From: a candidate division FCPU426 bacterium
Lineage (GTDB): Bacteria > Oederibacteriota > PGYV01 > Palsa-1178
Direction of reading: 5' to 3'
Assembly: GCA_963840035.1 (NCBI GenBank)
Contig: CAWIXE010000001.1
Coordinates: 992,001 to 1,056,000 of the forward strand
Length of the DNA stretch: 64,000 nt
The notes under the pieces were generated by a model, which was given only the letters and a program-made list of their open reading frames with translations, was not told the origin of the DNA and made no database searches. A program made the translations under genes and the position numbers. Below are positions 10,891 through 35,659 of the stretch, piece after piece. Positions within the stretch are counted from its first letter, which is position 1. Each line of letters starts with the position of its first letter.

Positions 10891-10915
10891 CGGATTTGAT
10901 GTTTTTGTTCTTTTA

Positions 10916-11003
10916 TCCCTCTCCCCTTGGGAGAGGGTAGGGTGAGGGGAATAGGACAATTGGTTTCACCTCACCCCAGCCCCTCTCCTAAGAGGAGAGG
11001 GGA
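10916..11003. repeat. CCCTCTCC-type inverted hairpin doublet
   Basis: CCCTCTCCCCTTGGGAGAGGGTAGGGTGAGGGG facing CACCTCACCCCAGCCCCTCTCCTAAGAGGAGAGGGG. Confidence 0.75.
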
Positions 11004-11026
11004 AAATACTGCTTAAAGGAATATAA

Positions 11027-16531: not shown

Positions 16532-18313
16532 ATGAAAAACACTGTCGCGGTAATCGGAAGCGTAAATCTTGACATACTGGTAAAGACTGAAGCCATGCCT
16601 GAGAGGGGCGAGACCATTTCCGGGGATGAAGTCCACTTCCTGCCGGGCGGCAAGGGCGCGAACCAGGCTGTGTCAATCGCCAGGCTCGGTAAAAAGGTGA
16701 ATTTTGTGGCGAAAACCGGAAAAGACACCGTGCCGGGCAATGCCATAAAGAATTTAACCCACCCTAATATTAATTTAAAATACATGATAACGGACAGCGC
16801 CCTTATAACAGGGATAGCTCTTGTCAATACGACCGGAAAAAAAGGGAACAAGGTTACCTGGTACACGGGAGCCAATAATTTCCTGACCCCGGCAGACATT
16901 GAAAAGTCTTCGGAAGCAATCCAGAACTCGTCAATTGTGCTTATCTGCACCGAACTTCCGGTGGCAACGGCGAAAAAGGCCGTGGAACTCGCGAAAAAAT
17001 TCGGCAAGAAAATAATAATATCTATCGGCGCGTTAACCGGAAAAAAGAGGGAGGACATCATGTCCCTTTTAGACGGCGCGTACCTCGTGGTTATGAATGA
17101 AAAAGAGGGCGGATACCTTTCAAACAGGGTCATCTCGCACATGGAGACAGGAAACCTAACAGGCAAGGAACTCCTGGCAAAGGGCGTCGAGAACGTCATA
17201 ATAACAATGGGCCGCGAGGCTTTATTTGTAAACGCGAAAGGCGCTGAAGTGTTCCCGGGCTACGGCGTGAAAGTCGTGGACACCATCGGAGGCGGGGACG
17301 CATTCGCGGGCGCGCTTACTGTGGCGATACTTGAAGGCAAGCCGATGGCCGAGGCCATAGATTTTGCCAACGCGTCAGGCGGGATGAATTCCATGTTCAC
17401 GGGCGCGCAGGAAGGAATGCCTGAGAGGGACAAGCTCGACAGCTTTGTTTCCAAAAGAAGCGGCGAGGGCGGACACTACAGGGATTACAATGACACCATA
17501 AAAATGCTGGAAAAACGCACGACAAAAATGCGCGTTAATATAATCAAGATGCTCGGCTGTTCCAAATCAGGGCACCCGGGAGGGTCGCTTTCAGCCATTG
17601 ATATTGTATCCACACTTTACCTTCACACCATGAACGTGGACCCGAAGAACCCTAAAAAAGAGGACCGCGATAAATTCGTATTATCAAAAGGCCACGGCGC
17701 TCCCGCTTTATACGCGGCGCTTGCGGAAGCCGGATTTTTTCCCGAGGAAAAACTGTGGCAGCTTCGCAAGATTGACAATGACTTATCAGGCCACCCGGAC
17801 ATGAAAAAAACCCCGGGTGTTGATATGACCACGGGTTCGCTCGGGCAGGGGCTCTCGGTAGGAAACGGCATGGCGCTCGCGGCGAAGCTTAAAGGGCTTC
17901 CGACCAGGGTATATGTGATGATGGGCGACGGCGAGATGCAGGAAGGCCAGATATGGGAAGCGGCCATGACCTCGTACCACAGGAGGCTTGATAATGTCTG
18001 CGCCATACTTGACTACAACGGCCTGCAGATAGACGGCTCAATCGGCGAGGTAAAGTCGGGCTTAGAGCCGCTCGTGGAAAAATGGAAGGCGTTTAACTGG
18101 AACGTCATAGAGATAGACGGGCATAATTATGAGCAGATAATAGAGGCGTTTGAAGCGGCGAAAGCTTACAAAGGCGCGCCGAGCATAATAATCGCAAGGA
18201 CCGTCAAAGGCAAGGGAGTATCATTCATGGAGAGGAAGGTCGAGTATCACGGCGTAGCGCCCACACCGGACGAGGAAAAGCGCGCGTTAAAAGAACTCGG
18301 CTGTGGTGAGTAA
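16532..18313 (+). CDS. Ribokinase (PfkB) fused to transketolase N-terminal (TPP-binding) subunit
   Basis: N-half: GSVNLD, GGKGANQA, NEKE, DTIGGGDAF. C-half: SGHPGGSLS, SKGH, GSLGQG, GDGEMQEG, YHGVAP. Confidence 0.9.
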   Translation: MKNTVAVIGSVNLDILVKTEAMPERGETISGDEVHFLPGGKGANQAVSIARLGKKVNFVAKTGKDTVPGNAIKNLTHPNINLKYMITDSALITGIALVNTTGKKGNKVTWYTGANNFLTPADIEKSSEAIQNSSIVLICTELPVATAKKAVELAKKFGKKIIISIGALTGKKREDIMSLLDGAYLVVMNEKEGGYLSNRVISHMETGNLTGKELLAKGVENVIITMGREALFVNAKGAEVFPGYGVKVVDTIGGGDAFAGALTVAILEGKPMAEAIDFANASGGMNSMFTGAQEGMPERDKLDSFVSKRSGEGGHYRDYNDTIKMLEKRTTKMRVNIIKMLGCSKSGHPGGSLSAIDIVSTLYLHTMNVDPKNPKKEDRDKFVLSKGHGAPALYAALAEAGFFPEEKLWQLRKIDNDLSGHPDMKKTPGVDMTTGSLGQGLSVGNGMALAAKLKGLPTRVYVMMGDGEMQEGQIWEAAMTSYHRRLDNVCAILDYNGLQIDGSIGEVKSGLEPLVEKWKAFNWNVIEIDGHNYEQIIEAFEAAKAYKGAPSIIIARTVKGKGVSFMERKVEYHGVAPTPDEEKRALKELGCGE

Positions 18314-18314
18314 C

Positions 18315-19328
18315 ATGGCTAAAACATCGATGAGAGGCGTTTACGGAGAGACGCTTGTAAAGTTAGGCGCCAAGTATAAAAATATAGTCGTGCTGGACGC
18401 GGACCTGGCGAAATCCACGCAGACAGGAAAGTTCGGCAAGGCGTTTCCCGACAGGTTCTTTGACATGGGCATAGCCGAGCAGGACATGATAGGGACGGCA
18501 GCGGGGCTGGCAGCCTCGGGCATGAACCCTTTTGCCTCAACTTTTGCCATGTTCGGCTCAGGCAGGCCCTGGGAGCAGATAAGGAACTCAGTGGCATACC
18601 CGAAACTTCCGGTTAAGATAGTCGTAACCCACGCGGGAATTTCCGTCGGAGAGGACGGCCCCACGCACCAGGCATGCGAGGACATATCCATAATGAGGTC
18701 CATCCCGAACATGAAAGTGGTGGCGCCCGCTGATTCGGTGGAGACCGAGAAACTCATAGAGTACCTGGCTGAGTATTATGATTCTCCGGTATATGTAAGG
18801 CTCACCAGGATGAATACAGATGTCGTATTCGGTCCGGATTATAAATTCGTATTCGGCAAGGGCATCATCATGAGGAAGGGAACGGATATCACCATAATAA
18901 GCACGGGCATAATGCTTTTCCAGGCGCTTGGAGCCGCTGATATCCTGAAGTCAAAAGGGATATCCGCTGAAGTCATCCACATGCCCACGATTAAGCCCAT
19001 AGACGAGAAGATGATAATTGCCTCTGCGAAAAAGACGGGAAAAGTCATAACGATAGAGGAACACTCCATAATAGGCGGACTCGGTTCTGCCGTCGCAGAA
19101 GTGCTTTCCGAGAAGCTGCCGGTTAAGATGAAAAGGGTGGGCGTTAATGACCTGTTCGCGGAGTCAGGAGTGCCGGAAGCTCTGTTTGAGAAGTATGGAC
19201 TTACCCCGGAAAATCTGGCAAAGCAGGCAAAAGCGCTGGTTGGCGATTCTAAAGTTGTTAAAAAATTGAGCAAGGCTTTTAAGGTTAAATCAGTTAAGGT
19301 GACGAAAGCAAAGAAGAAAAAGAAGTAA
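18315..19328 (+). CDS. Transketolase C-terminal subunit
   Basis: LDADLAKST, GIAEQDM, GEDGPTHQ, TIEEHS. Confidence 0.92.
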   Translation: MAKTSMRGVYGETLVKLGAKYKNIVVLDADLAKSTQTGKFGKAFPDRFFDMGIAEQDMIGTAAGLAASGMNPFASTFAMFGSGRPWEQIRNSVAYPKLPVKIVVTHAGISVGEDGPTHQACEDISIMRSIPNMKVVAPADSVETEKLIEYLAEYYDSPVYVRLTRMNTDVVFGPDYKFVFGKGIIMRKGTDITIISTGIMLFQALGAADILKSKGISAEVIHMPTIKPIDEKMIIASAKKTGKVITIEEHSIIGGLGSAVAEVLSEKLPVKMKRVGVNDLFAESGVPEALFEKYGLTPENLAKQAKALVGDSKVVKKLSKAFKVKSVKVTKAKKKKK

Positions 19329-19331
19329 GGG

Positions 19332-19913
19332 CCTCAGAAATCCTTCTCTTATCTCCCTTTCTGAAACAAAGGGAGACGATTAGTGGAGGAGTCTTTTGGT
19401 TGAGGCGGAATTATACAACGGAGTTTTTTTCAAAAACTGACTGACATATGTTAATGAGGGGCGTATGTATAGTTATAAATACAATAACAAATCAAAAGGC
19501 CAGGCGCGGTTTCTGCGCAATAATATGACAGCGGCTGAGAAAGTCCTATGGAATCATTACCTGAAAAAATCAAAATTCAGATATCTTAGACAGAAGCCAA
19601 TAGAAGGTTTTATCGCGGATTTTTACTGTGCTAAGTTGAAGTTGGTTATAGAACTGGATGGAATCACACATGAATTTTCAACATCAAAGAAACGGGACAA
19701 GAAACGAACTGACAGATTCAATAAATATGATATTAAAGTAATAAGATTTAAGAATGAAGAGGTGTTTAATAAGCTGAACGGGGTTGTAGGCGAGATTAAA
19801 CGTATTGAAGAAGAAGAAAACGGAAGGGTTGCCCATTCGCCTCAAGTTAAAGACTCCTCAAGCGGTCGTCCCTCTTTGTTTCAGAAAGAGGGATAAGAGG
19901 GTGATTTCTGAAG
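19332..19913. mobile_element. DUF559 cassette flanked by 76-bp imperfect inverted repeats
   Basis: 19332-19407 and the reverse complement of 19838-19913 match at 60/76 positions by manual alignment. Confidence 0.65.
19465..19896 (+). CDS. DUF559 (Vsr-like) endonuclease domain protein
   Basis: ARFLRNNMTAAEKVLW, RQKPI, FIADFYC, LVIELDG-TH, IKVIRFKNEEV. Confidence 0.9.
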   Translation: MYSYKYNNKSKGQARFLRNNMTAAEKVLWNHYLKKSKFRYLRQKPIEGFIADFYCAKLKLVIELDGITHEFSTSKKRDKKRTDRFNKYDIKVIRFKNEEVFNKLNGVVGEIKRIEEEENGRVAHSPQVKDSSSGRPSLFQKEG

Positions 19914-19961
19914 TCTTAACGCGGAACCGCTAAAAATATAATAAATAATTAGGGAGACTAT

Positions 19962-21047
19962 ATGTCAAAAAAGATATTTAAATGGGTTTTTATTTCGTTA
20001 ATAATAACGACAATTGTATTTGTTGTATTTGCATTTAACACTCCCGGCAGCACGCCTGCCATAAAAGGCGCGGACCGGAAGCCTCTGGCCGGCAGCATTG
20101 CCGCTCTTGAACAGGTGGAGCTCGGCGGAGTAAAACAGTGGGTATTAATGCGCGGTTATGACACTTCGAAACCTGTTCTTCTTATCCTTCACGGCGGGCC
20201 GGGTTCGCCTGAGATGCCTATGGTCAGGGCTTATAATTCCGGACTGGAAAAGAATTTTATTGTAGTAAACTGGGACCAGCGCGGGGCAGGCAAGTCATAT
20301 TCGAAAAGCATTAAGCCGGAAACCATGAAGATCGCGCTTTTCGTATCTGACGCTGAAGAACTGGTTAATTACCTAAGAAAAAGGTTCAACAAGGACAAGA
20401 TTTATATTGAGGGACATTCGTGGGGATCGGCCTTGGGGACGCTGCTTGTCCAGAAGATTCCACAGTATGTTAAAGCATATATAGCCGTGGGTCAGGTCAG
20501 CAACATGATTGAAAGCGAAAAGAATGTTTATAATTATGTTCTGGCGCAAGCACAGGCAAAAGGCGATAAGAAAGCCATGAAGGAACTTGAATCAGCCAAA
20601 AGTCTGGCTGACGGCGACCTGAAAAAAATCATGGTCCAGAGAAAATGGTCCATGAAATACGGCGGGCTTATTTACAAAGACCCGATGAAACTCCTATCGG
20701 GGTCATTCTCAAAGTCGCCTGAATACTCCTTAAGAGACGCGCTTATTAATTATTATTCCGGATCAAAACTTTCACTTTACAGCATGTGGGATGAGCTGGT
20801 AAAGGGCGACATGTTTACTTCGGCCGCCGTATGGAAAGTACCGGTATATTTCATCATTGGCAGGCACGATACCACTATAGACCCGTATCTGGCCGAGAAA
20901 TACTTTAATTACCTGAAGGCGCCCAAAAAGAAGTTCTTCTGGTTTGAGAATTCGTCGCATATGGCCGCGTACGAGGAACCGGAGAAGTACGAAAATATTA
21001 TGGTAAATACTGTCCTGATTGATAACGAAGTACCAAATAAAAAATAA
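19962..21047 (+). CDS. Alpha/beta hydrolase (proline iminopeptidase-like), N-terminally anchored
   Basis: LHGGPG, WDQRGAGKS, GHSWG nucleophile elbow, FENSSH. Confidence 0.85.
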   Translation: MSKKIFKWVFISLIITTIVFVVFAFNTPGSTPAIKGADRKPLAGSIAALEQVELGGVKQWVLMRGYDTSKPVLLILHGGPGSPEMPMVRAYNSGLEKNFIVVNWDQRGAGKSYSKSIKPETMKIALFVSDAEELVNYLRKRFNKDKIYIEGHSWGSALGTLLVQKIPQYVKAYIAVGQVSNMIESEKNVYNYVLAQAQAKGDKKAMKELESAKSLADGDLKKIMVQRKWSMKYGGLIYKDPMKLLSGSFSKSPEYSLRDALINYYSGSKLSLYSMWDELVKGDMFTSAAVWKVPVYFIIGRHDTTIDPYLAEKYFNYLKAPKKKFFWFENSSHMAAYEEPEKYENIMVNTVLIDNEVPNKK

Positions 21048-21061
21048 TAAGCGGAGGTTTT

Positions 21062-21574
21062 ATGGAACTCAATGAAAAGACAATAAACACTAACAGGCAG
21101 CTGATATACTGGCAGCTGGCGTTATCGCCGCTTATTTACCTGGTAATGTGCGAGCTGCTGATTAAATATGTATTTAAAGCCGGCCAGACGGGGTTTGTGC
21201 CGCTTCCGGCCGTACAATACGGGATGATTAAAACGGGGCTTATCATACTGGCTGCCATCGAGGCCGGTTTTATCCTCAGCATCAGGATGTGCATACACTC
21301 AGGCAATCTGACGTGGCCGGGCAGCATGATACTGAAGCCCTATGTGGGACGCAAAGGAAATGAATACGCCATAGAACAGGGCTTCATGATAATGATACTC
21401 GCAATCTGCGTTTCAATATCCGTGTACGGACTCACGCTGTTTTTCTTAAACGGCATCAGGCTGGACGCGTATGCTTTTATGGGCGTTTCGCAGGCGCTCA
21501 CGCTGCTCTTTATGCCGACGAAGGTCTATACCGATAAATTCAGGGCGCTCAAAAGCAGCGCGGTGAATAAATAG
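21062..21574 (+). CDS. Hypothetical membrane protein
   Basis: GGAGG RBS and four hydrophobic segments. Confidence 0.7.
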   Translation: MELNEKTINTNRQLIYWQLALSPLIYLVMCELLIKYVFKAGQTGFVPLPAVQYGMIKTGLIILAAIEAGFILSIRMCIHSGNLTWPGSMILKPYVGRKGNEYAIEQGFMIMILAICVSISVYGLTLFFLNGIRLDAYAFMGVSQALTLLFMPTKVYTDKFRALKSSAVNK

Positions 21575-21899
21575 GGATTTGCCGGAGTTTTTGATTTGAT
21601 CAGGGATTGTGCGTAATTTCAAAAAAAATAATGCAAATATAACAATTATTGCCTTATCCCCCGGAGAGGGAATAAAAGAATGATACTTAATTTACGTATT
21701 GTTACAACAATGGCTTAGAAAAAAACCTTGCGTTTTTATACTGTTTTTTGTAATATATTCACGTACGAGGGGTTACGGGACACAACTAAAATTCAGACTT
21801 AAATCAAAATCTGTAACTATATTTTTTTGCGTATTTATTTATGCGTTTAACCAAACCGCGTACAAGGCGCGGGGCTAGGGATATATGGAGGGTGCTACA

Positions 21900-23147
21900 G
21901 TGTTTAAAAAGGGGATTATTATATTTACTTCGATGGCTATTGCCGCGCTTGTCATTACTTCGTGCGGTAAGGAAACTCCGGGAGGGCCTCTGGGCGTGAA
22001 TAAAATAAAATTGACATACACACCTACCGCTACACCGGATGTGTCTTTCTGCGTTAGAATCTGTCAGGAGCAGACACCTGTGTCAGACGTTGCTGTCAGC
22101 GTATATTCAATTGATACAGGGGTTACTCTTACATCCAAAACAGCCACAGACGGTATAGCCGGGTTTCCTGTGCATAATGGCGGGGAGTGGCGGGTGGATG
22201 TGGCTTCGTTTAACGGTTTTGATACGAGGCAGGCAATAGTAGAACCTGTTGGAAACAGCGTGTGCGTACTGAACTATGGCATACCATGGCTCGAAGTGGA
22301 GTTACTAAGCGGGAGTGAAATGGTGCCTATAGCTGGGGAAACTTTGCAGTACAAGGTAACATATCATACAAAACACCCGAGGCTGGAAAGTATCAGTTTT
22401 AGTTTTGGTGAGACGTTACAAGTATCGCCCAAAAACCAGGTTGTTAGGGGAAATATGGATTTTAAAATATATGACATAATAATACCAAAAAGTTTTGAAA
22501 ATTATGAATCTGACAAAAAGACACTAAAATTTACTATAATAGGGCGGCCGACAGAGGGAGATAATACCGAGTCAGCAAAAAGAACACTGACAAAAGACTG
22601 GTATATGGTTGTAATTGCAAAGTATCATTTCATGGCAATATATGATTATTATGGCAAAGGGCAATATACGTCATATTACGCGGGAATAGAAGAAGCAAAT
22701 CTGTCGTATTCGCATAACGTTAACTGGAACCCGCCGATAAATTATGAAGTGATAGCGGCGGCAAGTTCAGGCGATGCCGGGGAGGAAACTCCGGTATTAA
22801 CGAATATCACGGTTCCTTCCTGGACGGATTTTGGGAATATTGTGGCTGCCGGACGCATACCAACCAATAACGGATGGGACTACGCAAGCAGTCATCCTGA
22901 TAATAATGGATGGGTTAAAATCCGTTTTTATGACCAGGGTGATGTGGACATAGTGCGGACTTTCAGCACTACAAACGGCTGGGGCATAGCATGCGCGTAT
23001 GGAGACTGTGTACCTGTGCCGTTACCTCCTAATCCGGGTTCAAAAAAATGCGGGGCAATACCTCCCGGAAGTTGTTTCTTAGGATTTACATATTTACCGT
23101 CGAGAGTATACCGGGAAAGAAAAGAAACTATAACTTTGCAGGAATAA
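21900..23147 (+). CDS. Hypothetical lipoprotein
   Basis: GTG start after GGAGGG, lipobox VITS-C, beta-rich body, Cys-containing C-terminus. Confidence 0.7.
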   Translation: MFKKGIIIFTSMAIAALVITSCGKETPGGPLGVNKIKLTYTPTATPDVSFCVRICQEQTPVSDVAVSVYSIDTGVTLTSKTATDGIAGFPVHNGGEWRVDVASFNGFDTRQAIVEPVGNSVCVLNYGIPWLEVELLSGSEMVPIAGETLQYKVTYHTKHPRLESISFSFGETLQVSPKNQVVRGNMDFKIYDIIIPKSFENYESDKKTLKFTIIGRPTEGDNTESAKRTLTKDWYMVVIAKYHFMAIYDYYGKGQYTSYYAGIEEANLSYSHNVNWNPPINYEVIAAASSGDAGEETPVLTNITVPSWTDFGNIVAAGRIPTNNGWDYASSHPDNNGWVKIRFYDQGDVDIVRTFSTTNGWGIACAYGDCVPVPLPPNPGSKKCGAIPPGSCFLGFTYLPSRVYRERKETITLQE

Positions 23148-23161
23148 AAATGGAGGTAATA

Positions 23162-23887
23162 ATGGAAAAAGTCATGAGGTTATTGGTAATTATTGTTTTC
23201 GTAACATTGTTTTCATCGTGCGTGACAAAAGGCCCGGCCGGGCCCACAGGCCCTGCAGGCCCGCAGACTCCGGGGCTGAACTATACCAGGGTCTTCCAGC
23301 AAGGGGTATACTCAAGCACATATTCAGGACAGGTACAGGCAGAATTATGCACGTGGACATCAGGAACAACATATACAAGTAATCTCAATCCTCTGGGCGT
23401 TGGCGCAAAAGTAACAGACGGATCAGATGATTACAGGACGATAATAAAGTTTAATCTAGAAAGCTTGCCAAGTACTAAAATAATTGTTGATAAGGCCGAA
23501 TTAACACTTCATACAACATCGCTGTCAATGGGGGGTGGTGCTGATAACATGGAAATACATAAAGTTATAGCGCCATGGACTATATATTTTGCCAGGTGGG
23601 GATCGGCATCAAGCGGAGTGCCGTGGACAAACGACGGCGGTGACTTTTCGGCGGCAACCATGACAGCAAACGCCGCGTTCTACGACATTGCCGCTGACAG
23701 CGAATATACAATCGGGCTGGCTCCGGAGGTCGTTCAGGACTGGATGGAAAACCCGGCAACGAATTACGGCATGTTTCTAAAAGTTCAGGACGAACTTAAA
23801 ATAAATTTTGCGCAGTTTTATTCATCCGGAGCGGTATTGCCTTCAAACAGGCCAATGTTAAAGATTTGGTATTATACAATCGAATAA
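23162..23887 (+). CDS. Lipoprotein with a short collagen-like repeat and a DNRLRE-like domain
   Basis: Lipobox FSS-C, GPAGPTGPAGP, RTIIKFNL...AELTL, VQDWMENPATNYG, NRPMLKI. Confidence 0.7.
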   Translation: MEKVMRLLVIIVFVTLFSSCVTKGPAGPTGPAGPQTPGLNYTRVFQQGVYSSTYSGQVQAELCTWTSGTTYTSNLNPLGVGAKVTDGSDDYRTIIKFNLESLPSTKIIVDKAELTLHTTSLSMGGGADNMEIHKVIAPWTIYFARWGSASSGVPWTNDGGDFSAATMTANAAFYDIAADSEYTIGLAPEVVQDWMENPATNYGMFLKVQDELKINFAQFYSSGAVLPSNRPMLKIWYYTIE

Positions 23888-23912
23888 TAATTTAAAAATA
23901 TGGGGGGTTAAA

Positions 23913-24040
23913 ATGGTGAAAAGTTATGGCTGTTTTTATCGGTTTTATTTGTTTTTGCAGTTTTTATGCCGGGGTGCGGGAAAAATCCGACTGCGCCTCA
24001 GACGGATAATGTCAAAAGAATCAGCAAAGCTACCATGTAA
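23913..24040 (+). pseudogene. Frameshifted, truncated lipoprotein 5' remnant
   Basis: G-rich RBS. Adding one A at 23919-23922 gives MVKKLWLFLSVLFVFAVFMPG-CGKNPTAPQ, with a stop about 20 residues after the Cys. Confidence 0.5.
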
Positions 24041-24164
24041 GTAGTTTTTGAACACGAGAACGGGATTGATAATAACAAAATATTTGAAAACATTCAGGAG
24101 TACAAAATATTATTTGAGTATTAATCACGCAGGGCTTGTAACTATAGAGGGGTTTTTGCGTGCT

Positions 24165-24192
24165 GAGGCGGCGGGTAAAACCGCCGCCTTTA
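24165..24192 (+). terminator. GC-rich hairpin, probable terminator
   Basis: GAGGCGGCGG-GTAAAA-CCGCCGCCTT followed by an AT/T-rich tract. Confidence 0.55.
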
Positions 24193-24242
24193 TAATTATT
24201 TTTTTTGCCATATTCTACAGGACAAAATAGTGGCCGCAAAAC

Positions 24243-24271
24243 TTGAGAAATCAACAGTCATGTGCTATAAT
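24243..24271 (+). promoter_or_regulatory. Strong sigma70 promoter with extended -10
   Basis: TTGAGA-17 nt-TATAAT, with TG one base before the -10 box. Confidence 0.7.
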
Positions 24272-24276
24272 AGTAC

Positions 24277-24531
24277 TGAAAGAGAAAGAGAAACAGAAAG
24301 GGAACAGAAATAGCACCGGAAAGAGTCCCGGAAATAGCACGAGAACGGGAAGCGGAAAGAGCACCGGAAACAGTACCAGCAACAGGAGTTGCACCAGAAC
24401 CAGCTGTAGAAGTCCTGCAGTAGAACGGTTCTGGGGCGGTTTGGGTAAACACTCGAGAAGAACGGGCCTAACAAAAGCCTAAATGATTAAAAATCTCCTC
24501 CGAGAATGCCTGAATCGCCTCCCTTTTTTTT
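24277..24531 (+). ncRNA. Candidate novel non-coding RNA (hexamer/GGA-repeat 5' domain plus structured 3' domain)
   Basis: Own promoter, no credible ORF, hexamer periodicity, two stems with G.U pairs, ends in T8. Confidence 0.55.
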
Positions 24532-24704
24532 ATACCCCCGGATATACCCGCCACAATCCACATATTTTCTATCAAACAGCAAGATGCTTAACTACTTAAG
24601 CAAAAACAACGTTTTTTCACTCATTTATCCTGGTTTTCACGTACATACTGTGATGATTAATGCGTTAACCCCGGCATGTAAATATTTTGTCATAGGGGCT
24701 AAAT

Positions 24705-24733
24705 TTGACTTCAGTTAGACAGGGATATACAAT
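24705..24733 (+). promoter_or_regulatory. Sigma70 promoter
   Basis: TTGACT-17 nt-TACAAT. Confidence 0.6.
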
Positions 24734-24770
24734 TGATATAAGATATAAAAACATATATAGAGGGGTTTTT

Positions 24771-27746
24771 ATGAACTTTAGCAAATTTCATAGGACAACA
24801 GGGGTTGTTCATTTTTTTTCACCCCCTGTTAAACCGTTTAAACGCGATCCCGCTTATAACGCATGCATGCTGATTGTTACCGTATTTCTTATGTTTTTTT
24901 ACGATAACTGCCTGGCATGGGTAAATGCCGGCTTTGAAACCGGAGACACTTCTTCCTGGAGTGTGAGCAGGAGCGTTACAACAAGGGCGGATGTCGTTTA
25001 TACGCCGACAGTAACTGTAGCAACTCACGGAGCCGCACCGCATACGCAGGGAACCATATGCGCCGCGCCGGCTGTATGCCTTGATAAAGTGCGCTCGGGC
25101 AATTATGCGGCACAGATGCATTCGGGCCGCGGCGGGAGCGATGGATTTGACGACTGGGCTAGGATACAGCAGACTGATTTAGTTCCAACAAACGGTAATA
25201 CCTGCCTTTCTTTCTGGTTTTCTGCTGTCTTAACAGGAAAACATTATCTTTCTGACGGCGCGCCTGATGAGGACGCAAATATACTTCTTGAAGTAATAGT
25301 GAACGGCAGGGTTGTTGCCAGTCAGAGCTTTAACTATTTTACAATGCTAAACCAGCTGGTTGATGACGGCGCCGATCCGTATGGAGCGCCGGACCCCGTA
25401 GACGGCGGCGGCGATGATACGCAGGACCAGTGGCGGCACCTGCCTTGGACGCAGTTTTATGTCAACCTTGCGGCTTACGCCGGGCAAAACGCCACGGTAC
25501 GGTTTACCGCTTACGGCTGCAGCCAGGGCGGCCATGACTGCTACGGATTCCTGGATGATGTGAGCTGGGCGGCGTGCCCCGTGGTGGACATGACCCTTGT
25601 CAAATCAAACAGCCCGGCTGGCGTTGTGCACCCTAACGGGAACATAACCTATACACTGAACTATACAACAACGGGGACGGCGGGAATACTCGGGGTAAAA
25701 ATCTACGATACAATACCCCCAGGAACGTCATATGTAAATAATTCCGCTTCAAGCGTGCCGCATTATCCGCTGGTAACTGTCTACGGTGGTATGATTGAAT
25801 GGGATATGGGATACCTGCCGCCCGGAGCGTCCGGAAGCCTAAGTTTCCGCGTAAGGGTCAATACAGCATGTACATCCGTATCCAATACCGCTTCAGAGTC
25901 TGACCTGCAGACAGACGGCTTGAAATCCAACACGGTTTCCAATATTATAGACGGCTGCACGCCGACCGTGACAATGACTTCAACACGCACAATTACAAAT
26001 ACTGTTACCAAGACAATAACAAGGACCACAACACCGACTGTCACCATGACTGCTACAGCAACAAATACAAAGACGGTCACTGAAACCGTGACGCCGTCCG
26101 TTTCCAAAACATATACGGCAACAAAGAGCGATACGCCTACACATACAAGCACTCGGACGGCCACAGAGACTTCTACAGACACCGCCACATATACCCCGAC
26201 AAAAACAATGACGCCGACTAAAACGCCTACAAATACCAATTCGCCGGTTGCCTCTGTCACGCATACACCTACAGTGACTGCCACAAAAACCGCCACACCT
26301 ACACATACAATGACTTCTACAGCCACACATACAAAAACAGCCACGCAGACATTTACGGCCACGCAGACATTTACGGCCACGCAGACATTTACGGCCACGC
26401 AGACATTTACGGCCACCGGGACAACATCGTATACATATACTGCCACACCGACACATACCGCTACAAAAACTTTCACAAATACATCTACGCCGACAAATAC
26501 CAATACTGCGACTGGGACGGTTACTTCCACGCGCACATCTACGGCTACAAGTACCGCGACAGCAACTGCGACAGCCACGAAAAGCGGCACAAATACATTT
26601 ACGCATACCCGCACCGCGACACGCACGGTTACTGTTACCGTGACACTGACCCCGATGCCGACGTTTACGATAACGGCGACGCTGACGGTGTCGGAGACGC
26701 CGTATATACCGGTGCGAGGTTTTCTTTTGAGCATTAACGTATATAATTCGGCAGGCGAGGTTGTCAGGCATATAGCGGGCATGGCTACGCTTTCAAACAT
26801 GACATCCGCTGATGTCCGTATTGACGGGGATGAAAGCGCCAGCGTAATAGGGGAGAACTCAGTGATGGCCATATACCTGCCAGGTGTGCGGCCATCGGCA
26901 AATCCCGGGATGTCAGGGCTTTCATTCACGTGGGATGGAAAGAATGACGCGGGCCAGTTCCTGGCATCAGGCGCGTATATGGTAAAAATTGAGGAAATTG
27001 ACACATATGACCGTCTTACAACTTATAACAGGGATATAACCGTAATGAGGGTCCAGACCTATGCGAAGCTTAAAGTGTTCAACACCGCCGGAGAACTGGT
27101 GCGGATTATAACCGAGATGGGAAAGGTTGTCCCTGATTCGATCTTTCTTGGCAATGACGCAGAGGGGACGCAGGGGGTTAAGGCCCTGGCAAATCCTGAT
27201 GTGATAGTAATAAACAATAATAAGCCAAACGACATTAACATAACATACGGGACAGGCGATAATGACTTTATTATATGGGATGGAAGGAACAGTTTCGGAC
27301 TGGCAGTTTCAAGCGGCATATACGAACTGCAGGTTTGTTTACGGACGCGGGAGGGTTTTTTAAAAGAGGCCACAAGGACCGTGTTCATACGCAACGAAGG
27401 GAAAAAATATCTGGGAAACATAAGCATCGTGCCAAATCCTTACAGAGGGACAACAAACGGCATAGAGATACGGTGGGATTTGGGCGGGGTTACCTGGATG
27501 CCGGACCCCGGCGGCGCTCAGACAGGTGAAGTAGCGGTCCTTATATGTTCCGTTTCAGGCGAACAGGTCAGAAAGATCTACGGCAAACTTCAGGCGGGCC
27601 GGGTTGTATGGGATTTAAAAAGCGCCTCAGGAGAACTGGTTACAACAGGTATTTACATAGCGGTAATAGAGGCAAAGAGTTCGGACGGATATCTGGAAAG
27701 GAAGACGCAGAAGATCGCGGTTGCGGAGTACCGGTTCAAATACTGA
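24771..27746 (+). CDS. Large secreted protein: N-terminal beta domain, DUF11-like domain, Thr-rich linker, FlgD-Ig/CTD-like repeats
   Basis: [12 protein letters not shown]...ITYTLNY...[12 protein letters not shown] (DUF11); ~250-aa TxTxT linker; repeated V[YF]N[ST]AGE[VL]VR...WDG[KR]N...SG.Y motifs. Confidence 0.8.
26340..26416 (+). repeat. In-frame 18-bp perfect tandem repeat, four copies
   Basis: GCCACGCAGACATTTACG x4, encoding ATQTFT. Confidence 0.9.
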
Positions 27747-27806
27747 CTTTTCTGAGGCTGTTATGATATAATTATCCCCGTAATCAATTCATCTGCGGAG
27801 GCTTAT

Positions 27807-30377
27807 ATGGTCGACAGCACAGGATTGCCGGGGCTTGATAAGATCCTAAACGGCATCATTCCGGGGGACAATATTGTATGGCAGACTGATTCCATAGAAG
27901 ACTTTACGCCTTATGTAAAACCTTACTGCGATTACGCAAAATCCATCGGCAGGAAGCTGGTATATTTCCGGTTTGCCAAGCATCAGGCGTTTGTGGACGC
28001 GGAATCAGGGGCTGAAGTCTGCGTATTAAAGCCGGAGGAAGGTTTTGAAAAATTTATAACGGGAATGCACGAAGTCATAACGCGCGTGGGAGACGGCGGG
28101 TATTATATTTTTGACTCGCTTTCAGAGCTCGCTGTCGAGCACTTTTCCGAGGCTATGATTGAAAATTTCTTTGTCTTAACCTGCCCCAGGCTCCTGAAAA
28201 TGAAATGCATCGCTTACTTCATGGTGCTGCGCAATTATAACTCATACCACGCCACCCAGCTTATCACCCGCACAACCCAGCTGATTCTCGATGTTTATAA
28301 CCAGTCCGGAAAGGAATACATACATCCGGTAAAGGTGGACGGGCGCTACTCGCCAACCATGTATATGCTGCATGAACGCCTCGGGGATGATTTTATTCCG
28401 GTCATGGATTCCACTGTGGTGGCGGATGTTTCGGTGTCCGGGCCGTGGTATGGCCTGCAGTCCGCGCCATACAGGGCGGTCGGGCTATGGGACAAGCTTT
28501 TCATTGAGGCTGAAAATATCACCGAATCGTGCAGGCGCGGAGAATGCTCGCAGGAAACAGTGCGGGAAGTGTTTAAACGCCAGCTGCGTCAGCTAATCGC
28601 CACGGATGAGCGCATGCTCGAGATGGCGGCAAAACACATGGACCTGGCCGGGCTGATACATATATGGAAACGCACCATAGGCTCGGGAATGATAGGCGGA
28701 AAATCCGTGGGCATGCTTTTGGCCCATGACATATTAAAAAAAGGGTTTAAGCGTTATGACGAGATAATTGAAAAGCATGACTCATTTTATATCGGTTCCG
28801 ACATATTTTATTCCTTTCTTGTGCAGAACGGGTGCTGGCATATAAGGCAAAAGCAGAAGGACCCGGAGACGCTTTTTGACGGCATAGAAGAGGCGCGCGA
28901 GCGCATCCTCGCGGGTAAATTCCCCAACGAGGTAATAAAAAGATTCTCTGACATGCTTGACTATTTCGGACAAGCCCCTGTAATAGTCCGCTCCAGCAGC
29001 CTTCTCGAGGACAACTTCGGCAATGCATTTTCAGGAAAGTATGAATCCATATTCTGCGTAAATAACGGCACGCGGGAGGAGCGGTTGAAGTATTTCCTCG
29101 ACGCTGTGCGCGTCATATACGCTTCCACCATGTCCAGGGAGGCGCTGGCTTACAGGGCGCGGCGCGGAGTCCTGGAAAATGACGAGCAGATGGCGCTTTT
29201 GGTGCAGCGGGTCTCGGGGGCAAGGCATAAGAACGTGTTTTTTCCGGAACTCGCCGGGGTCGGTTTTTCCTACAATTCATATACCTGGGATGAGTCCATA
29301 GACCCGGACGCGGGACTGTTGCGGTTAGTTTACGGGCTGGGCACAAGGGCCGTGGACAGGCACGATGATGATTACACCAGGATAGTCGCGCTTAACGCGC
29401 CTGAAAAGAGGCCGGAAGGCAATACCAGGGAAGTCCTGAAATTCACCCAGAAAAGGGTGGACGTGCTTAACATAAAAAAAAATGACCATGAAACCGCCTA
29501 CTTTACGGATATTATAAAAGCAAACCCGGACATTGACGTGAGGCTGTTCAGCGCAATAGTGGAAAAGAATGACATGAGCCATAAGGTCATTGATTTCAGC
29601 GGGATATTTTCGGAAACGGCATTCATAAATGATATGAGCGAAATTTTAAGGATATTAAGGGACGCTTACGCAAGCCAGGTCGACATAGAGTTTACCGCCA
29701 ATTTTTTCCCTGACGGCAGGTATAAGATAAACCTACTGCAATGCAGGCCGCAACTGGTAAAAAAGGATACCTCGGCGAAGAGCGCGCTTCCGCAGATGGA
29801 GTCCGGGAATATAATTTTAAAGGCGGGAAGCGGAGTCGTGGGACAGGGAAGGATGGCCGCAATCGACAGGCTTATATATGTGGTGCCGTCAAAGTACGGC
29901 GCGCTGCCTGAGCAGGACAGGTACGCTGTCGCAAGGCTCATAGGCAAACTCGCCCATCATGAGACGTCTGACGCGAATAAGACCATAATGCTTATGGGCC
30001 CGGGAAGGTGGGGGACCAGGATGCCGTCGCTGGGAATACCCGCGACTTTTTCGGAAATAAACACGGCCTCGGTAATATGCGAGATTGGCGTGATGCACGA
30101 GGGATTAACCCCGGACCTTTCAATGGGCACCCACTTTTTTAACGATATGGTCGAGATGAACACCCTGTATATAGGTTTCTTCCCGTCCAAAGAAGGCAAT
30201 GTCCTAAATGAAGAAATGCTGCTTAAACTGCCTGACCATTTCCCTTACCTGATGCCTGAGGAACCGGGATGGAAAGGCGTTATAAAAGTTATAGATTCAG
30301 ACGCTCTGGAAGGCGGTAAAAAACTATATCTGAACGCTGATTCTGTAAAACAGGTGGCTGTTTTATATATAGGATGA
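27807..30377 (+). CDS. PEP/pyruvate-binding (PPDK_N, ATP-grasp) domain protein with a degenerate RecA/KaiC-like N-terminus
   Basis: STGLPGLDKIL start, IGGKSVG, VRSSSLLED, FSGKYES, GLGTRAV, DIEF, LQCRP, GPGRWG. Confidence 0.8.
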   Translation: MVDSTGLPGLDKILNGIIPGDNIVWQTDSIEDFTPYVKPYCDYAKSIGRKLVYFRFAKHQAFVDAESGAEVCVLKPEEGFEKFITGMHEVITRVGDGGYYIFDSLSELAVEHFSEAMIENFFVLTCPRLLKMKCIAYFMVLRNYNSYHATQLITRTTQLILDVYNQSGKEYIHPVKVDGRYSPTMYMLHERLGDDFIPVMDSTVVADVSVSGPWYGLQSAPYRAVGLWDKLFIEAENITESCRRGECSQETVREVFKRQLRQLIATDERMLEMAAKHMDLAGLIHIWKRTIGSGMIGGKSVGMLLAHDILKKGFKRYDEIIEKHDSFYIGSDIFYSFLVQNGCWHIRQKQKDPETLFDGIEEARERILAGKFPNEVIKRFSDMLDYFGQAPVIVRSSSLLEDNFGNAFSGKYESIFCVNNGTREERLKYFLDAVRVIYASTMSREALAYRARRGVLENDEQMALLVQRVSGARHKNVFFPELAGVGFSYNSYTWDESIDPDAGLLRLVYGLGTRAVDRHDDDYTRIVALNAPEKRPEGNTREVLKFTQKRVDVLNIKKNDHETAYFTDIIKANPDIDVRLFSAIVEKNDMSHKVIDFSGIFSETAFINDMSEILRILRDAYASQVDIEFTANFFPDGRYKINLLQCRPQLVKKDTSAKSALPQMESGNIILKAGSGVVGQGRMAAIDRLIYVVPSKYGALPEQDRYAVARLIGKLAHHETSDANKTIMLMGPGRWGTRMPSLGIPATFSEINTASVICEIGVMHEGLTPDLSMGTHFFNDMVEMNTLYIGFFPSKEGNVLNEEMLLKLPDHFPYLMPEEPGWKGVIKVIDSDALEGGKKLYLNADSVKQVAVLYIG

Positions 30378-30486
30378 AGATTATTGATAATCGTCAATAA
30401 ACGATTTTTAAATTTGCCTCATATGGCATTCCCTTACAATTAGTGCTATAATTAGCATGTGAAATATGGGGAATCCCGGAGGAAAA

Positions 30487-31131
30487 ATGAAAAAAATCAT
30501 ATTTATATTAACGGCTATATTTGTCCCGTTATGCCTCATGTCCGCTGACGGCGGACGGGAAAATTACTGTCCGCTTGGTATAAACCAGAACTGGGTATAC
30601 TCGCTTTTCAGCAAAAAAGACAATGTACAAAAAGACGACATTCATACTTTTATAAAAACAATTGAAAAATTCGACGGGACGGACTGTTATTTCTATGAGG
30701 CCCCGTCAAAATCAATATATGTATATTTTATCACCGGCGTTACGGGTATATACGCCAAAGCTGTGCGCACAAACCTGCCTGTGCTGGGATTTATTAATGT
30801 GGATATAGTTTTTGACCCGCCCGGGCTTTTACTTAAGTCTGAAATAAAAGACGGGGATAAATGGCGGTATGAAGGCAAGGCTGTCCTGAAAACCCTCGCC
30901 ATTATAAACATAGAAACAAAAGTATCGGCTGACATAAAGATGATAGGCATGGAAAACATAACGGTGCATGGCCGCAAGTTCAAAGCCTACCACGCCGAGG
31001 CTACCGCAAGCAGGAACTGGAATGACGAGACGCCCATGAAGTTCGACTGCTGGCTCGTGAAAAATGTTGGGCTGGTAAAGGGCGAGACAAAAAATTCCCT
31101 GCTGGAAATAAAGGAATGCTACACGGAATAA
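30487..31131 (+). CDS. Hypothetical secreted protein
   Basis: GGAGG RBS, signal peptide, YCPLG..WVY and WLVKNVGLVK motifs. Confidence 0.7.
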   Translation: MKKIIFILTAIFVPLCLMSADGGRENYCPLGINQNWVYSLFSKKDNVQKDDIHTFIKTIEKFDGTDCYFYEAPSKSIYVYFITGVTGIYAKAVRTNLPVLGFINVDIVFDPPGLLLKSEIKDGDKWRYEGKAVLKTLAIINIETKVSADIKMIGMENITVHGRKFKAYHAEATASRNWNDETPMKFDCWLVKNVGLVKGETKNSLLEIKECYTE

Positions 31132-31161
31132 CTTAAAATTTGTAGTTTAAAATGAAAGCGA

Positions 31162-33531
31162 GTGAAAAGCGTTATGTTTATAGAAACGGAAGTGCTGATA
31201 AAAAAGCTGCTTCGTGTCTTTAATCCCGATGAGATCATGATAAGGCTGTTAAAACTTTCAAGGCTGGACAAGCCGGCCGACCAGCCAGGCCTCATTATGA
31301 TTCAGATTGACGGACTGGGTTATGACCAGTTCAAGACAGCCCTTGAAAAAGGGCAAATGCGCAACATGAAAAGAATCGTTAAAAAAGAGGGCTTCTCATA
31401 CGGCCGGCTTTACCCGGGGCTGCCTTCAAGTACTGCCGCGGTACAGGGGGAACTTTTTTACGGCGTGAAAAAGGCAATCCCGTCTTTTAGCTACAGGGAC
31501 AGCAGCACGGGTAAAATATTTAACATGCTGAATCCGGAGTCGACACTGTCCGTTGAAACGCGCCTGCGGGAGGCCGGCGGCGAACCGCTTTTGAAAGGCG
31601 GAAGCGTATTCGGCAATATGTTCACCGGCGGGTCTGATGAAGCGCACTTCTGCGTCTCGGCTGCCGGATGGAAGCGGTTTTTCAGGACCGCAAGTTTTGT
31701 CGCTTTTACCCTTTCCATATTACTCCACCTGCATATCTTCATAAGTTTGATATTCGAATTAATTTTACAAACCCTCATCGGGTTATTTGTTGTTTTCCGG
31801 TCAGTTTTCAGGCTGGAAAAGATAGGCGACGGGTTAAGAAACAGCGTTATCAGGGCGCTTGTATGCTCGCTGATGAAGGATATTATCACCATAGGCGCCA
31901 GGATAGACGTGGCGCGCGGCCTGCCGGTAATACATTTGAACCTTGTGGGATACGATGAAATGTCGCATCTGATGGGGCCGAAATCATTTACGGCCCACCA
32001 GTATCTGCGGGGCATAGACAGGGTGATAGGAGACATGTGGAAAGCGGCGCACAGTTACAAGCTCCGGGATTACGAATTCTGTATTTATTCCGACCACGGA
32101 CAGGAAGAAACCGTTTACTACGCGAATGAGACAGGCAGGTCAATCCAGGAAGCCATCAATTCAATATTTAAAAACACCATCATGTCAGCGGGCTGGAGGG
32201 CTTCTTTAAAGGCTCACACGCATTATTCAAGGGCTGACCTTTTAAGGAACAGGCCGAAAAAAATAAAACCACAGCCGCAGCCGCCTGCAGACGCCCACGC
32301 GGCGGTGGAGGCCATCGGGCCCGTAGGGCATATTTATCCGCCTGTTTCGCTTTCATCCGAGGAAAAGCAGCAGCTTGCCGCGGAGCTGGTGAAAAATGCG
32401 GCCATACCAACGGTAATGTATTTTGACGAAAAAAACAGGGCTGTCGCCAGGGACGCGCAAGGAAGTTTTTTCCTGCCGGAAGGCGCGGACAGGATAATAG
32501 ACAGGGGCCATCCGTTCTATGAAAGCACGGCAGAAGATTTAAAGAACCTTTGTCTTCACCCGGATTCAGGCGCGCTCATATTGCTGGGCTGGAGAAAAAA
32601 CAGGAAACCACTGACATTTTATAATGAACACGGGAGCCATGCCGGGCCCGGCCCTGAGGAGACATCCGCTTTTGCGGTGCTTTCCGAAAAGGAGATAGGG
32701 CATCCGTGGCCGCGTCCAATCACCATCGGGGATCTGCGCGAAGCCGCTCTGCGCGCGCAGGGAAGGCTCAAGGCCGGCGCCGCGCACCCGCACAGCCATA
32801 AAAAACCGGAAGGGGTCATAAGGGTCATGAGTTATAACGTACATGGCTGCGCCGGAAGGGACGGCAGGATCTCCCCCGAAAGGATCGCGAGGGTTATTGC
32901 CGCGCATGACCCGGACATAGTCGCGCTGCAGGAACTCGACGCGAACGACGCCGTACATCAGGCAGAAATAATAGCAAAGAGTCTTTCCATGTCGCACCAT
33001 TACCACGCTTCCGTATTGCTAAGGCACGGATGGCATGGCAACGCCGTGCTGAGCAGGTATGACTTAAAGCTTATTCACAGCGCCGGGCTAAAGAGGCTGA
33101 TGAAAACCAGGATCCTGGAACCACGCAGCGCGTTATGGGTTGAAGCGGATGTGGACGGGAAAAAAGTGCAGATATTTACCACGCATTTAAGCCTTTTCCC
33201 CGGGGAAAACCTGCTGCAGGCAAAGGACATATTAGGGCATGATTGGATTGGAAGCCCCAAAATATCCGGGCATGTAATACTGTGCGGCGATTTTAACGCT
33301 ACAGCCAGGTCAAAAACGTGTAAGGAGATAAAGAAAGTATTAAAAGACGCGCATCATGGCCTCAAAGGCAGGTACGGGATCAGGACTTTTCCGAGCATGT
33401 ATCCGGTGAGCAAGATAGACCACATATTTACCGACAGCGGCATTAAGACAATACCGGTATGTCATGTGATTTCCAGGCTTGAAAGAAAGGCCTCGGACCA
33501 CCTGCCGCTGATAGCGGACCTTGTCATATAA
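31162..33531 (+). CDS. Alkaline-phosphatase-superfamily phosphodiesterase fused to an EEP (endonuclease/exonuclease/phosphatase) domain
   Basis: N-part: QIDGLG, PSST, YDEMSH, SDHG, HGSH. C-part: SYNVH, LQE, GDFN, IDHI, SDHLP. Confidence 0.8.
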   Translation: MKSVMFIETEVLIKKLLRVFNPDEIMIRLLKLSRLDKPADQPGLIMIQIDGLGYDQFKTALEKGQMRNMKRIVKKEGFSYGRLYPGLPSSTAAVQGELFYGVKKAIPSFSYRDSSTGKIFNMLNPESTLSVETRLREAGGEPLLKGGSVFGNMFTGGSDEAHFCVSAAGWKRFFRTASFVAFTLSILLHLHIFISLIFELILQTLIGLFVVFRSVFRLEKIGDGLRNSVIRALVCSLMKDIITIGARIDVARGLPVIHLNLVGYDEMSHLMGPKSFTAHQYLRGIDRVIGDMWKAAHSYKLRDYEFCIYSDHGQEETVYYANETGRSIQEAINSIFKNTIMSAGWRASLKAHTHYSRADLLRNRPKKIKPQPQPPADAHAAVEAIGPVGHIYPPVSLSSEEKQQLAAELVKNAAIPTVMYFDEKNRAVARDAQGSFFLPEGADRIIDRGHPFYESTAEDLKNLCLHPDSGALILLGWRKNRKPLTFYNEHGSHAGPGPEETSAFAVLSEKEIGHPWPRPITIGDLREAALRAQGRLKAGAAHPHSHKKPEGVIRVMSYNVHGCAGRDGRISPERIARVIAAHDPDIVALQELDANDAVHQAEIIAKSLSMSHHYHASVLLRHGWHGNAVLSRYDLKLIHSAGLKRLMKTRILEPRSALWVEADVDGKKVQIFTTHLSLFPGENLLQAKDILGHDWIGSPKISGHVILCGDFNATARSKTCKEIKKVLKDAHHGLKGRYGIRTFPSMYPVSKIDHIFTDSGIKTIPVCHVISRLERKASDHLPLIADLVI

Positions 33532-34654: not shown

Positions 34655-34658
34655 TACA

Positions 34659-34759: not shown

Positions 34760-34775
34760 TGCTTTCGAGGCACCT

Positions 34776-35602: not shown

Positions 35603-35659
35603 AACAGCAAATAATCCAAAAACAAAAAAACCAGCCTGCAAAAACAGCTTTATTTTTAA

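What the first reader, a model, noticed from the sequence alone, without database searches (positions are those of the whole stretch)
19332..19913. DUF559 endonuclease bracketed by 76-bp inverted repeats whose internal hairpins covary
Seen: the left arm (19332-19407) and the reverse complement of the right arm (19838-19913) align ungapped at 60/76. Each holds a hairpin: TCTCCCTTT-ctgaaac-AAAGGGAGA versus TCCCTCTTT-ctgaaac-AAAGAGGGA. The two stem differences are mirrored by compensatory changes in the opposite arm. The cassette starts 3 nt after the transketolase stop, and the ORF's last ~19 codons run into the right arm. Established: RAYT transposases are flanked by inverted REP hairpins that they mobilise. 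Inference: a REP/RAYT-like selfish module that uses a Vsr-like nuclease instead of an HUH transposase and recognises hairpin structure.
Basis: partly seen in the sequence, partly recalled or inferred. Interest (0 to 1): 0.7.

Follow-up and report, generated by a model that had tools for sequence, protein, structure and literature searches.

The report
Nuclease cassette with triplex-DNA ends
A small predicted DNA-cutting enzyme gene sits between two inverted repeats whose sequence is predicted to fold into three-stranded DNA, and gene-less copies of the repeat lie right behind the stop codons of other genes in this genome, so the enzyme is likely what spreads this long-unexplained kind of bacterial repeat.

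Summary
Observation confirmed: arms match 60/76, stems covary, and the ORF is an intact DUF559 (Vsr/EDxHD-fold) nuclease. The arm is more than a hairpin: a third block mirrors the stem and covaries with it (117/126 purine-motif triads over 14 arms; permuted mean 101). That fits a class II intrastrand DNA triplex, the BoxC/PIT class whose spread is unexplained in print. The genome holds 12 gene-less loci of this arm family. Nine of all 13 loci start exactly 3 nt behind a stop codon (0.26% expected), and orthologues show native stops and no arm. Two more DUF559 genes here have their own arm families. Across 110 other DUF559 loci, 72 have inverted flanks (controls 1/94), and arm type follows the protein tree. 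Best reading: a master cassette whose nuclease likely nicks at folded ends while host repair completes copying. It resembles Ssn-NTS and REP-RAYT but is neither. Not shown: activity, movement of the cassette, or its exact empty site. I found no paper on the pairing; this scan noted it on other DNA many times (641 notes). Added here: three-way covariation and stop-codon targeting.

The parts
19332..19407 (+). Left arm (family A repeat, outer end first)
19339..19376 (-). Predicted class II purine-motif intrastrand triplex of the left arm, read on the minus strand: pyrimidine stem 19376-19368, 7-nt loop, purine stem 19360-19352, 4-nt loop, third strand 19347-19339; 8 of 9 triads fit
19326..19328 (+). 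Transketolase stop TAA, 3 nt before the arm; possible first copy of a 3-bp target duplication (inferred)
19456..19461 (+). Shine-Dalgarno-like GAGGGG before the ATG at 19465
   Evidence: sequence
19465..19896 (+). DUF559 Vsr/EDxHD-fold nuclease gene, 143 aa, conserved Q43, D52, E63, D65, H69, D78, R94; low GC3 (0.375 vs genome median 0.55)
19838..19913 (-). Right arm (inverted family A repeat), overlapping the last ~19 codons and the stop of the ORF
19869..19906 (+). Predicted class II triplex of the right arm: pyrimidine stem 19869-19877, loop, purine stem 19885-19893, loop 19894-19897 (holds the ORF stop), third strand 19898-19906; 9 of 9 triads fit
19917..19919 (+). TAA 3 nt after the right arm; possible second copy of a 3-bp target duplication (exact in 2 of 4 paired elements)

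Best explanation
This 582-bp cassette is likely the gene-carrying master copy of a small repeat family: an intact Vsr-fold (DUF559) nuclease gene between two inverted ends that are predicted to fold into a three-stranded DNA structure, with gene-less copies behind stop codons elsewhere in the genome that the nuclease likely helps to spread. SHOWN: the arms, the gene, 12 gene-less loci (single arms, inverted pairs, one fused pair), perfect stem covariation, a mirror third block that covaries with the stem, placement 3 nt behind native stops, absence from orthologous sites in relatives, and family-wide pairing of arm type with protein clade. INFERRED: (1) the purine-rich strand folds into a class II triplex when single-stranded during replication or transcription; (2) the protein, which has no separate DNA-binding domain, recognises that fold plus the conserved outer motif and nicks hydrolytically near it; (3) host repair or replication copies the end into a new site at TAA/TGA plus three mostly purine bases, perhaps with a 3-bp duplication; (4) insertion just behind a stop leaves the protein intact, and at the one site checked the native terminator too, so copies persist. 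Steps 2 and 3 are untested.
For: Copies: 17 arm sites at 13 loci; the reversed-genome control gave one hit at E 0.063. Stem: 126/126 cells paired, 14 double-sided changes at 4 pairs, no G-T; slid controls 56-74%. Third strand: 117/126 triads at a 4-nt loop (33-82 at other loop lengths); 20,000 permutations gave mean 100.7, max 115; each of 4 stem types fits its own third strand best; for the two asymmetric stem types the block follows the mirror image, not a direct repeat. Stops: 9 of 18 outer ends (9 of 13 loci) lie exactly 3 nt behind a co-oriented stop; expected 0.26% per intergenic position, 5.5% given TAA there. Orthologues: the response-regulator gene ends at the same codon in 4 of 6 same-family genomes; the same gene follows in 8 of 11 relatives at 168-187 nt versus 268 here, with a terminator-like hairpin right after the stop. 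The dehydrogenase gene ends within 1 codon in 6 of 7. No strong arm match in these relatives (best E 0.001, 36 nt, far from the gene end). Transketolase is followed by secD in 9 of 12 informative relatives, none with DUF559. Survey: inverted flanks in 72 of 110 loci vs 1 of 94 control windows; triplex motif in 69 of 110 (both flanks 39) vs 2 of 92 (both 0); 4 arm-type changes on the tree for 83 labelled rows vs shuffle mean 35, minimum 28; Mantel rho 0.24, distal control 0.02. Three DUF559 genes in this genome have three distinct arm families. Fold: 3hrl Z 14.6, I-Bth0305I Z 12.2, Vsr Z 9.8; the I-Bth0305I D196A position aligns with D52.
Against: The gene-carrying cassette is single-copy and has no exact empty site: no same-genus genome was offered, and a 17.7-kb lineage-specific block separates transketolase from secD. 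Arms are only 67-85% alike, so no recent burst. No long target duplication; TAA on both sides in only 2 of 4 paired elements. Two copies carry another repeat inside the second loop, breaking the triplex, yet also sit at +3. The fixed +3 spacing is not general among other DUF559 loci or families B and C. 38 of 110 loci lack inverted flanks, and family C's gene has arms on one side only. 22 family C doublets travel inside an unrelated MITE, so such repeats can spread without DUF559. Copies and kin are not independent, so the permutation values overstate significance; arm classes were hand-made and 62 of 145 rows stayed unlabelled. Holder 2015 found no stable triplex in duplex DNA or in vivo. A hydrolytic nuclease cannot rejoin DNA by itself.
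Confidence: 0.55

Rival explanations
1. The pairing is real, but the nuclease is a domesticated site-specific single-strand nuclease, like SsnA on NTS repeats. It cuts its repeats to affect recombination or incoming DNA; the repeats multiply as a by-product of repair and the cassette is not a transposing unit.
For: Same repeat-gene-repeat architecture, small single-domain protein and partner specificity as Ssn (PMC11893778 passages); single gene copy per family; old, diverged arms; no clear target duplication.
Against: Patchy distribution (49 of 99 genomes of the phylum), foreign codon use (3.6th percentile GC3) and a family found only in this genome of 99 suit a mobile unit; the exact +3 placement implies a defined insertion reaction.
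Confidence: 0.25
2. The arms are moved by another enzyme in the genome (a RAYT/Y1 transposase, an Ssn-size GIY-YIG protein or a DDE transposase), and DUF559 is a passenger or only protects or regulates the element.
For: The genome has 8 Y1_Tnp matches, two 105-aa GIY-YIG frames, 221 GTAG-REP-like starts, and a MITE that carries family C doublets with 8-9-bp duplications.
Against: No Y1 gene lies within 4 kb of a family A arm; family A has no outer terminal repeats; arm type follows the DUF559 tree across phyla, and three genes in one genome have three arm families; catalytic residues are kept in 142-145 of 144-145 rows (D52 partly by the search pattern).
Confidence: 0.1
3. The arms are kept as RNA elements (terminators or mRNA stabilisers) behind stop codons, and their place reflects selection rather than targeting.
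For: Nine loci lie right behind stops, all in the same orientation on the transcript.
Against: No terminator-like site was found; no G-U pairs in 126 cells; T in the third block opposite A fits only the purine motif, which cannot form in RNA (Holder passages); the native terminator is still present behind the arm at the response-regulator locus; selection alone would not fix a 3-nt spacing; PIT elements showed no terminator activity.
Confidence: 0.05
4. The gene is an ordinary Vsr-type mismatch-repair nuclease, or the arms are sites of a programmed inversion.
For: Vsr fold; DUF559 is enriched (odds ratio 14) among predicted inversion targets in a table of PMC9881135.
Against: No methyltransferase or recombinase among the adjacent genes; arms are 79% alike and mostly occur singly; that enrichment is equally explained by flanking inverted repeats.
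Confidence: 0.05

Closest known systems
BoxC / PIT / TM_ECO class II intrastrand triplex repeats (Holder et al. 2015, PMC4666352; passages and section 16 read)
   Same: Intergenic; pyrimidine stem, loop, purine stem, short loop, mirror third strand with 9-nt stems; patchy among relatives. Families B and C give 10 exact TM_ECO matches in this genome.
   Different: Family A does not match the TM_ECO consensus: it is A/T-richer, with 7- and 4-nt loops and a longer conserved flank. Holder found no mobility genes near TM_ECO and never mentions a nuclease.
Ssn nucleases with NTS/SRM repeats (Chenal et al. 2025, PMC11893778; passages read)
   Same: Small single-domain nuclease gene flanked by its own folded repeats, dispersed copies, partner-specific pairs, hydrolytic chemistry.
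   Different: Ssn is GIY-YIG and cuts near a hairpin; this is a Vsr/EDxHD fold with predicted triplex ends. Ssn activity is shown; this is not. The paper has no mention of Vsr, DUF559 or triplex.
REPtrons/TIRtrons: RAYT/TIRYT with REP/REPIN repeats (Di Nocera et al. 2013, PMC3733652; passages read)
   Same: Single gene between inverted repeats; gene-less singles and doublets across the genome; several cognate pairs per genome.
   Different: No HUH/tyrosine transposase domain, no GTAG/CGTC tag; different chemistry.
EDxHD homing endonuclease I-Bth0305I and Vsr (Taylor et al. 2011, PMC3239194; passages read)
   Same: Fold (Z 12.2 and 9.8) and catalytic Asp/His positions.
   Different: No N-terminal NUMOD DNA-binding region, no intron or intein, no adjacent methyltransferase.
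CIR repeats of Caulobacter (Chen and Shapiro 2003; not held, seen only through Delihas PMC2229807 passages)
   Same: Intergenic two-armed repeats of about 110 bp with unknown mobiliser; Caulobacter has PF04480 matches.
   Different: No sequence comparison was possible. I recall, unverified, that this paper noted an ORF between some arms; if so, part of the pairing has been seen before.

Membership tests
Class II intrastrand triplex motif (Holder 2015 definition) | Pyrimidine block, purine block, reverse-Hoogsteen block in 5'-3' order; stem 6-15 nt, at most one mismatch | tested here: met
   Right arm 9/9, left arm 8/9; 12 of 14 arms have 8 or more
Class II intrastrand triplex motif (Holder 2015 definition) | Loops of 1-6 nt in the ITxF search (0-10 in Hoyne's) | tested here: inconclusive
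   First loop is 7 nt, second 4 nt: outside ITxF, inside Hoyne
Class II intrastrand triplex motif (Holder 2015 definition) | Physical triplex formation (CD/NMR) | not testable with these tools
   Needs oligonucleotide work
TM_ECO / BoxC | TM_ECO consensus sequence | tested here: not met
   Window arms do not match; 10 other sites in the genome do
REPtron (RAYT-REP) | HUH/Y1 tyrosine transposase | tested here: not met
   Only DUF559 in Pfam; Vsr-like fold
REPtron (RAYT-REP) | GTAG/CGTC-tagged palindromes | tested here: not met
   No such tag in the consensus of alignment A2
REPtron (RAYT-REP) | Gene flanked by inverted cognate repeats with dispersed copies | tested here: met
Ssn-NTS | GIY-YIG domain | tested here: not met
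Ssn-NTS | Site-specific ssDNA cleavage near own repeat | not testable with these tools
   Needs purified protein
DUF559 / Vsr-like nuclease | PF04480 above cut-off; Vsr fold; catalytic D, E-x-D-G-x-x-H, D | tested here: met
Vsr mismatch-repair system | Linked cytosine methyltransferase gene (recalled) | tested here: not met
   Adjacent genes are transketolase and an alpha/beta hydrolase
EDxHD homing endonuclease | Intron/intein host and N-terminal DNA-binding repeats | tested here: not met
   Free-standing 143-aa intergenic gene
Classical IS/MITE | DDE transposase and regular target duplication | tested here: inconclusive
   No DDE domain; TAA on both sides in 2 of 4 paired elements, no longer duplication

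The most novel reading that the evidence does not exclude
DUF559 proteins are a widespread class of mobilisers that read intrastrand triplex DNA: each recognises its own three-stranded end, nicks it, and drives copying of the gene cassette and its miniature copies. This subfamily targets the stop codon plus three bases. That would give BoxC/PIT repeats their missing enzyme and give bacterial triplex DNA a defined biological role.
Probability: 0.4. Interest if true: 0.85.

Novelty: new variant of a known kind. Interest (0 to 1): 0.64.

Why it matters
Holder et al. 2015 close by saying that the mechanism and origin of these triplex repeats are unanswered and that they found no mobility genes nearby. 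A cognate 143-aa nuclease makes this testable with one protein and a 40-80-nt oligo. This genome is a ready specificity panel: three nucleases with three arm families, and four natural stem variants with matching third strands. If true, it adds a third enzyme class beside HUH (RAYT) and GIY-YIG (Ssn) to repeat-plus-nuclease elements, gives a natural triplex-reading nuclease, and shows an insertion rule (behind stop codons) that spares genes.

Tried and rejected
Rfam: nothing meaningful, two chance hits. Promoter/terminator scan: none in 19250-20000. Whole-arm folding z-scores were weak, -0.4 to -2.1; only the 9-bp stem is robust. An exact family A pattern found 0 matches in metagenome contigs. 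The left arm matched only this genome among 99 of the phylum, plus one weak 36-nt hit. Sequencing runs: one DNA run with 6% of words, no RNA holder listed; it showed no joints and does not bridge the cassette. The idea that the element supplies a new stop by truncating genes was rejected for two well-conserved genes; two others end at variable places and do not decide it. A long target duplication, reported in other scan notes, was not found at the 13 loci; the 21-nt A/G-rich repeat 19311/19808 is low-complexity. A general +3 rule across DUF559 loci was rejected. No Mutator-family transposase was found for the family C MITE with PF00872. A covariance model of family A scored arms of the nearest protein clade best but weakly (best E 0.002; 67 loci given). 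Chen and Shapiro 2003 could not be read. Literature searches that found no paper on the DUF559-repeat pairing; the library lacks most subscription papers, and I opened no supplements (Holder's tables of motif neighbours may bear on this).

Full report
Observation. The two arms are at the stated coordinates and match 60/76 without gaps, against a maximum of 49 in 60 shuffles. The ORF 19465-19896 is DUF559, between a transketolase C-terminal subunit gene and an alpha/beta hydrolase gene. It is AT-rich: GC 0.37, GC3 at the 3.6th percentile of 2,766 crudely called genes.

Protein. An AlphaFold model from a 55-sequence alignment (pLDDT 84) matches the uncharacterised 3hrl (Z 14.6), the I-Bth0305I catalytic domain (Z 12.2) and Vsr (Z 9.8). 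The I-Bth0305I D196A mutation aligns with D52 and H213A lies one position from H69. Q43, D52, E63, D65, H69, D78 and R94 are kept in 142-145 of 144-145 rows (the metagenome set was retrieved by a pattern containing D52). The closest relatives reach about 50-56% identity. There is no extra DNA-binding domain. Activity is inferred.

Copies in the genome (3.46 Mb, 98% complete). An iterated profile finds 17 arm sites at 13 loci; the reversed genome gives one hit at E 0.063. Twelve loci have no gene: singles, two inverted pairs whose spacers resemble the cassette's inner flanks, and one 65-bp fusion of two half-arms of different stem type. Arms are 67-85% alike, with the outer end and hairpin at 84% and the inner part at 62%. 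Two further DUF559 genes lie on contig C2. One has inverted arms on both sides, the other a cluster upstream only. Their families have 20 and 100 arms at E<1e-5 (the two models overlap on weaker hits). Arm alignment scores are 73, 50 and 31 within families and 16-23 between.

Structure of the arm. In 14 aligned arms the stem is paired in 126 of 126 cells, with 14 double-sided changes and no G-T. Template switching could produce that alone. An earlier scan note pointed to BoxC/PIT repeats, so I tested for a third strand. On the strand reading pyrimidine stem, loop, purine stem, the nine bases after a 4-nt loop fit antiparallel G.G-C, A.A-T or T.A-T triads at 117 of 126 positions in a set of 14 arms with intact outer ends (both halves of the fused pair counted; the two interrupted copies and the truncated one left out). 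Other loop lengths give 33-82. Swapping third strands among arms gives a mean of 100.7 and a maximum of 115 in 20,000 tries. The copies are related, so the fair statement is that each of four stem types fits its own third strand best. For the two asymmetric types, which include both window arms, the block follows the mirror image rather than a direct repeat. Template switching makes inverted, not mirror, copies (established knowledge), so this points to selection on a triplex. Purine-motif triplexes do not form in RNA (Holder passages), which points to single-stranded DNA. The arms fit class II but not the TM_ECO consensus.

Placement. Nine of 18 outer ends, at 9 of 13 loci, start exactly 3 nt behind a co-oriented stop codon; chance is 0.26%, or 5.5% if TAA is already there, and 9 of 11 ends with TAA/TGA at that place are real stops. 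For four host genes I fetched orthologues from 24 genomes of the order (the best 9-11 loci each were examined). The response regulator ends at the same codon in 4 of 6 same-family genomes and is followed by a terminator-like hairpin and the same next gene at 168-187 nt (8 of 11 relatives); here the distance is 268 nt and the arm sits between stop and terminator. The dehydrogenase ends within one codon in 6 of 7. The other two genes have variable ends. None of these relatives has a strong arm match. So at the informative sites the arms are lineage-specific insertions behind native stops. TAA flanks both sides in 2 of 4 paired elements, including the window's, which hints at a 3-bp duplication but does not prove it. 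The +3 rule is specific to family A. For the cassette itself, 9 of 12 informative relatives have secD after transketolase and none has DUF559; here secD is 17.7 kb further on, so there is no exact empty site.

Family-wide picture. PF04480 occurs in 49 of 99 genomes of the phylum. Of 144 loci gathered by similarity (plus the window), 110 had full flanks after leaving out this genome's two. Of these, 72 have an inverted match of 30 bits or more across the gene, versus 1 of 94 control window pairs. A class II motif occurs in at least one flank in 69 and in both in 39, versus 2 and 0 of 92 controls. Three hand-defined arm types change 4 times on a FastTree tree for 83 labelled rows (62 unlabelled), versus at least 28 in 500 shuffles. 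A motif-free Mantel test on 61 loci under 70% identity gives rho 0.24 against a permutation maximum of 0.13, and distal windows give 0.02. Kin share labels, so this shows co-inheritance of gene and arm, not function. The window's protein groups with the arm type its own arms resemble, apart from the other two genes of its genome.

Mechanism. I commit to a master-cassette model (0.55): the folded end is recognised and nicked by the DUF559 protein, and host repair or replication copies it to sites behind stop codons. A domesticated Ssn-like role (0.25), passenger status (0.1), an RNA role (0.05) and Vsr repair or inversion (0.05) are the rivals. Real weaknesses: a single gene copy, old arms, no clear duplication, two copies with a broken triplex, and the finding that 22 family C doublets ride inside a 201-bp MITE with 8-9-bp duplications, which shows such repeats can be amplified by other means.

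Known and new. The repeat class is known (Holder 2015: passages and section 16), as is the repeat-nuclease-repeat design (Chenal 2025, Di Nocera 2013: passages). Nine searches found no paper pairing DUF559 with such repeats. One table lists DUF559 as enriched among predicted inversion targets, and a superfamily review groups it with Vsr. Chen and Shapiro 2003 was not available and may hold an earlier hint (recalled, unverified). This scan has noted the pairing on other DNA: 641 notes hold the words. They are leads, not support. What I tested here adds an A/T-richer arm subfamily with three-way covariation, exact stop-codon placement with orthologous empty sites, and three cognate pairs in one genome. 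Verdict: real; new variant of a known kind; interest 0.64.

Noticed in passing
G000 C1:192120, C1:912880, C3:509978-510187 and 19 more: A 201-202-bp MITE with its own terminal repeats and 8-9-bp target duplications, 22 copies, each carrying a family C triplex doublet inside; no Mutator-family transposase was found in the genome.
   Followed up: partly
G000 C2:390600-391135 (L068) and C2:1647944-1648576: Two more DUF559 genes with their own TM_ECO-like arm families; the second has arms only upstream.
   Followed up: yes
window 10911-11006: A family C triplex doublet between two genes, 20 nt behind a stop.
   Followed up: no
G000 C1:660552-660629 and C1:961175-961249: A different ~75-nt repeat (about ten other copies) is inserted at the same place, the second loop, of two family A arms; possibly an Ssn-type repeat, untested.
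   Followed up: partly
G000 C1:229952-230016: A 65-bp element made of two half-arms of different stem type joined at the hairpin, like a collapsed cassette.
   Followed up: partly
G000 C1:17308, C1:184293, C1:660533, C3:322898: GTAG-type REP palindromes lie within about 150 nt of four family A copies; these gaps collect several repeat families.
   Followed up: no
window 16532-18313: One ORF fuses a PfkB sugar kinase domain to the transketolase N-terminal subunit.
   Followed up: no
window 19465-36876: A 17.5-kb block separates transketolase from secD, which are adjacent in most relatives.
   Followed up: partly
L072 (G001:C203), G002:C14, G010:C7: DUF559 matches inside open frames of about 1,200 aa in three relatives, suggesting fusion or in-frame insertion.
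   Followed up: no
G000 C1:495377, C1:732837, C2:246357, C2:658315, C2:1648279, C3:497117: A ~30-nt hairpin unit is inserted in the first loop of several family C hairpins.
   Followed up: no
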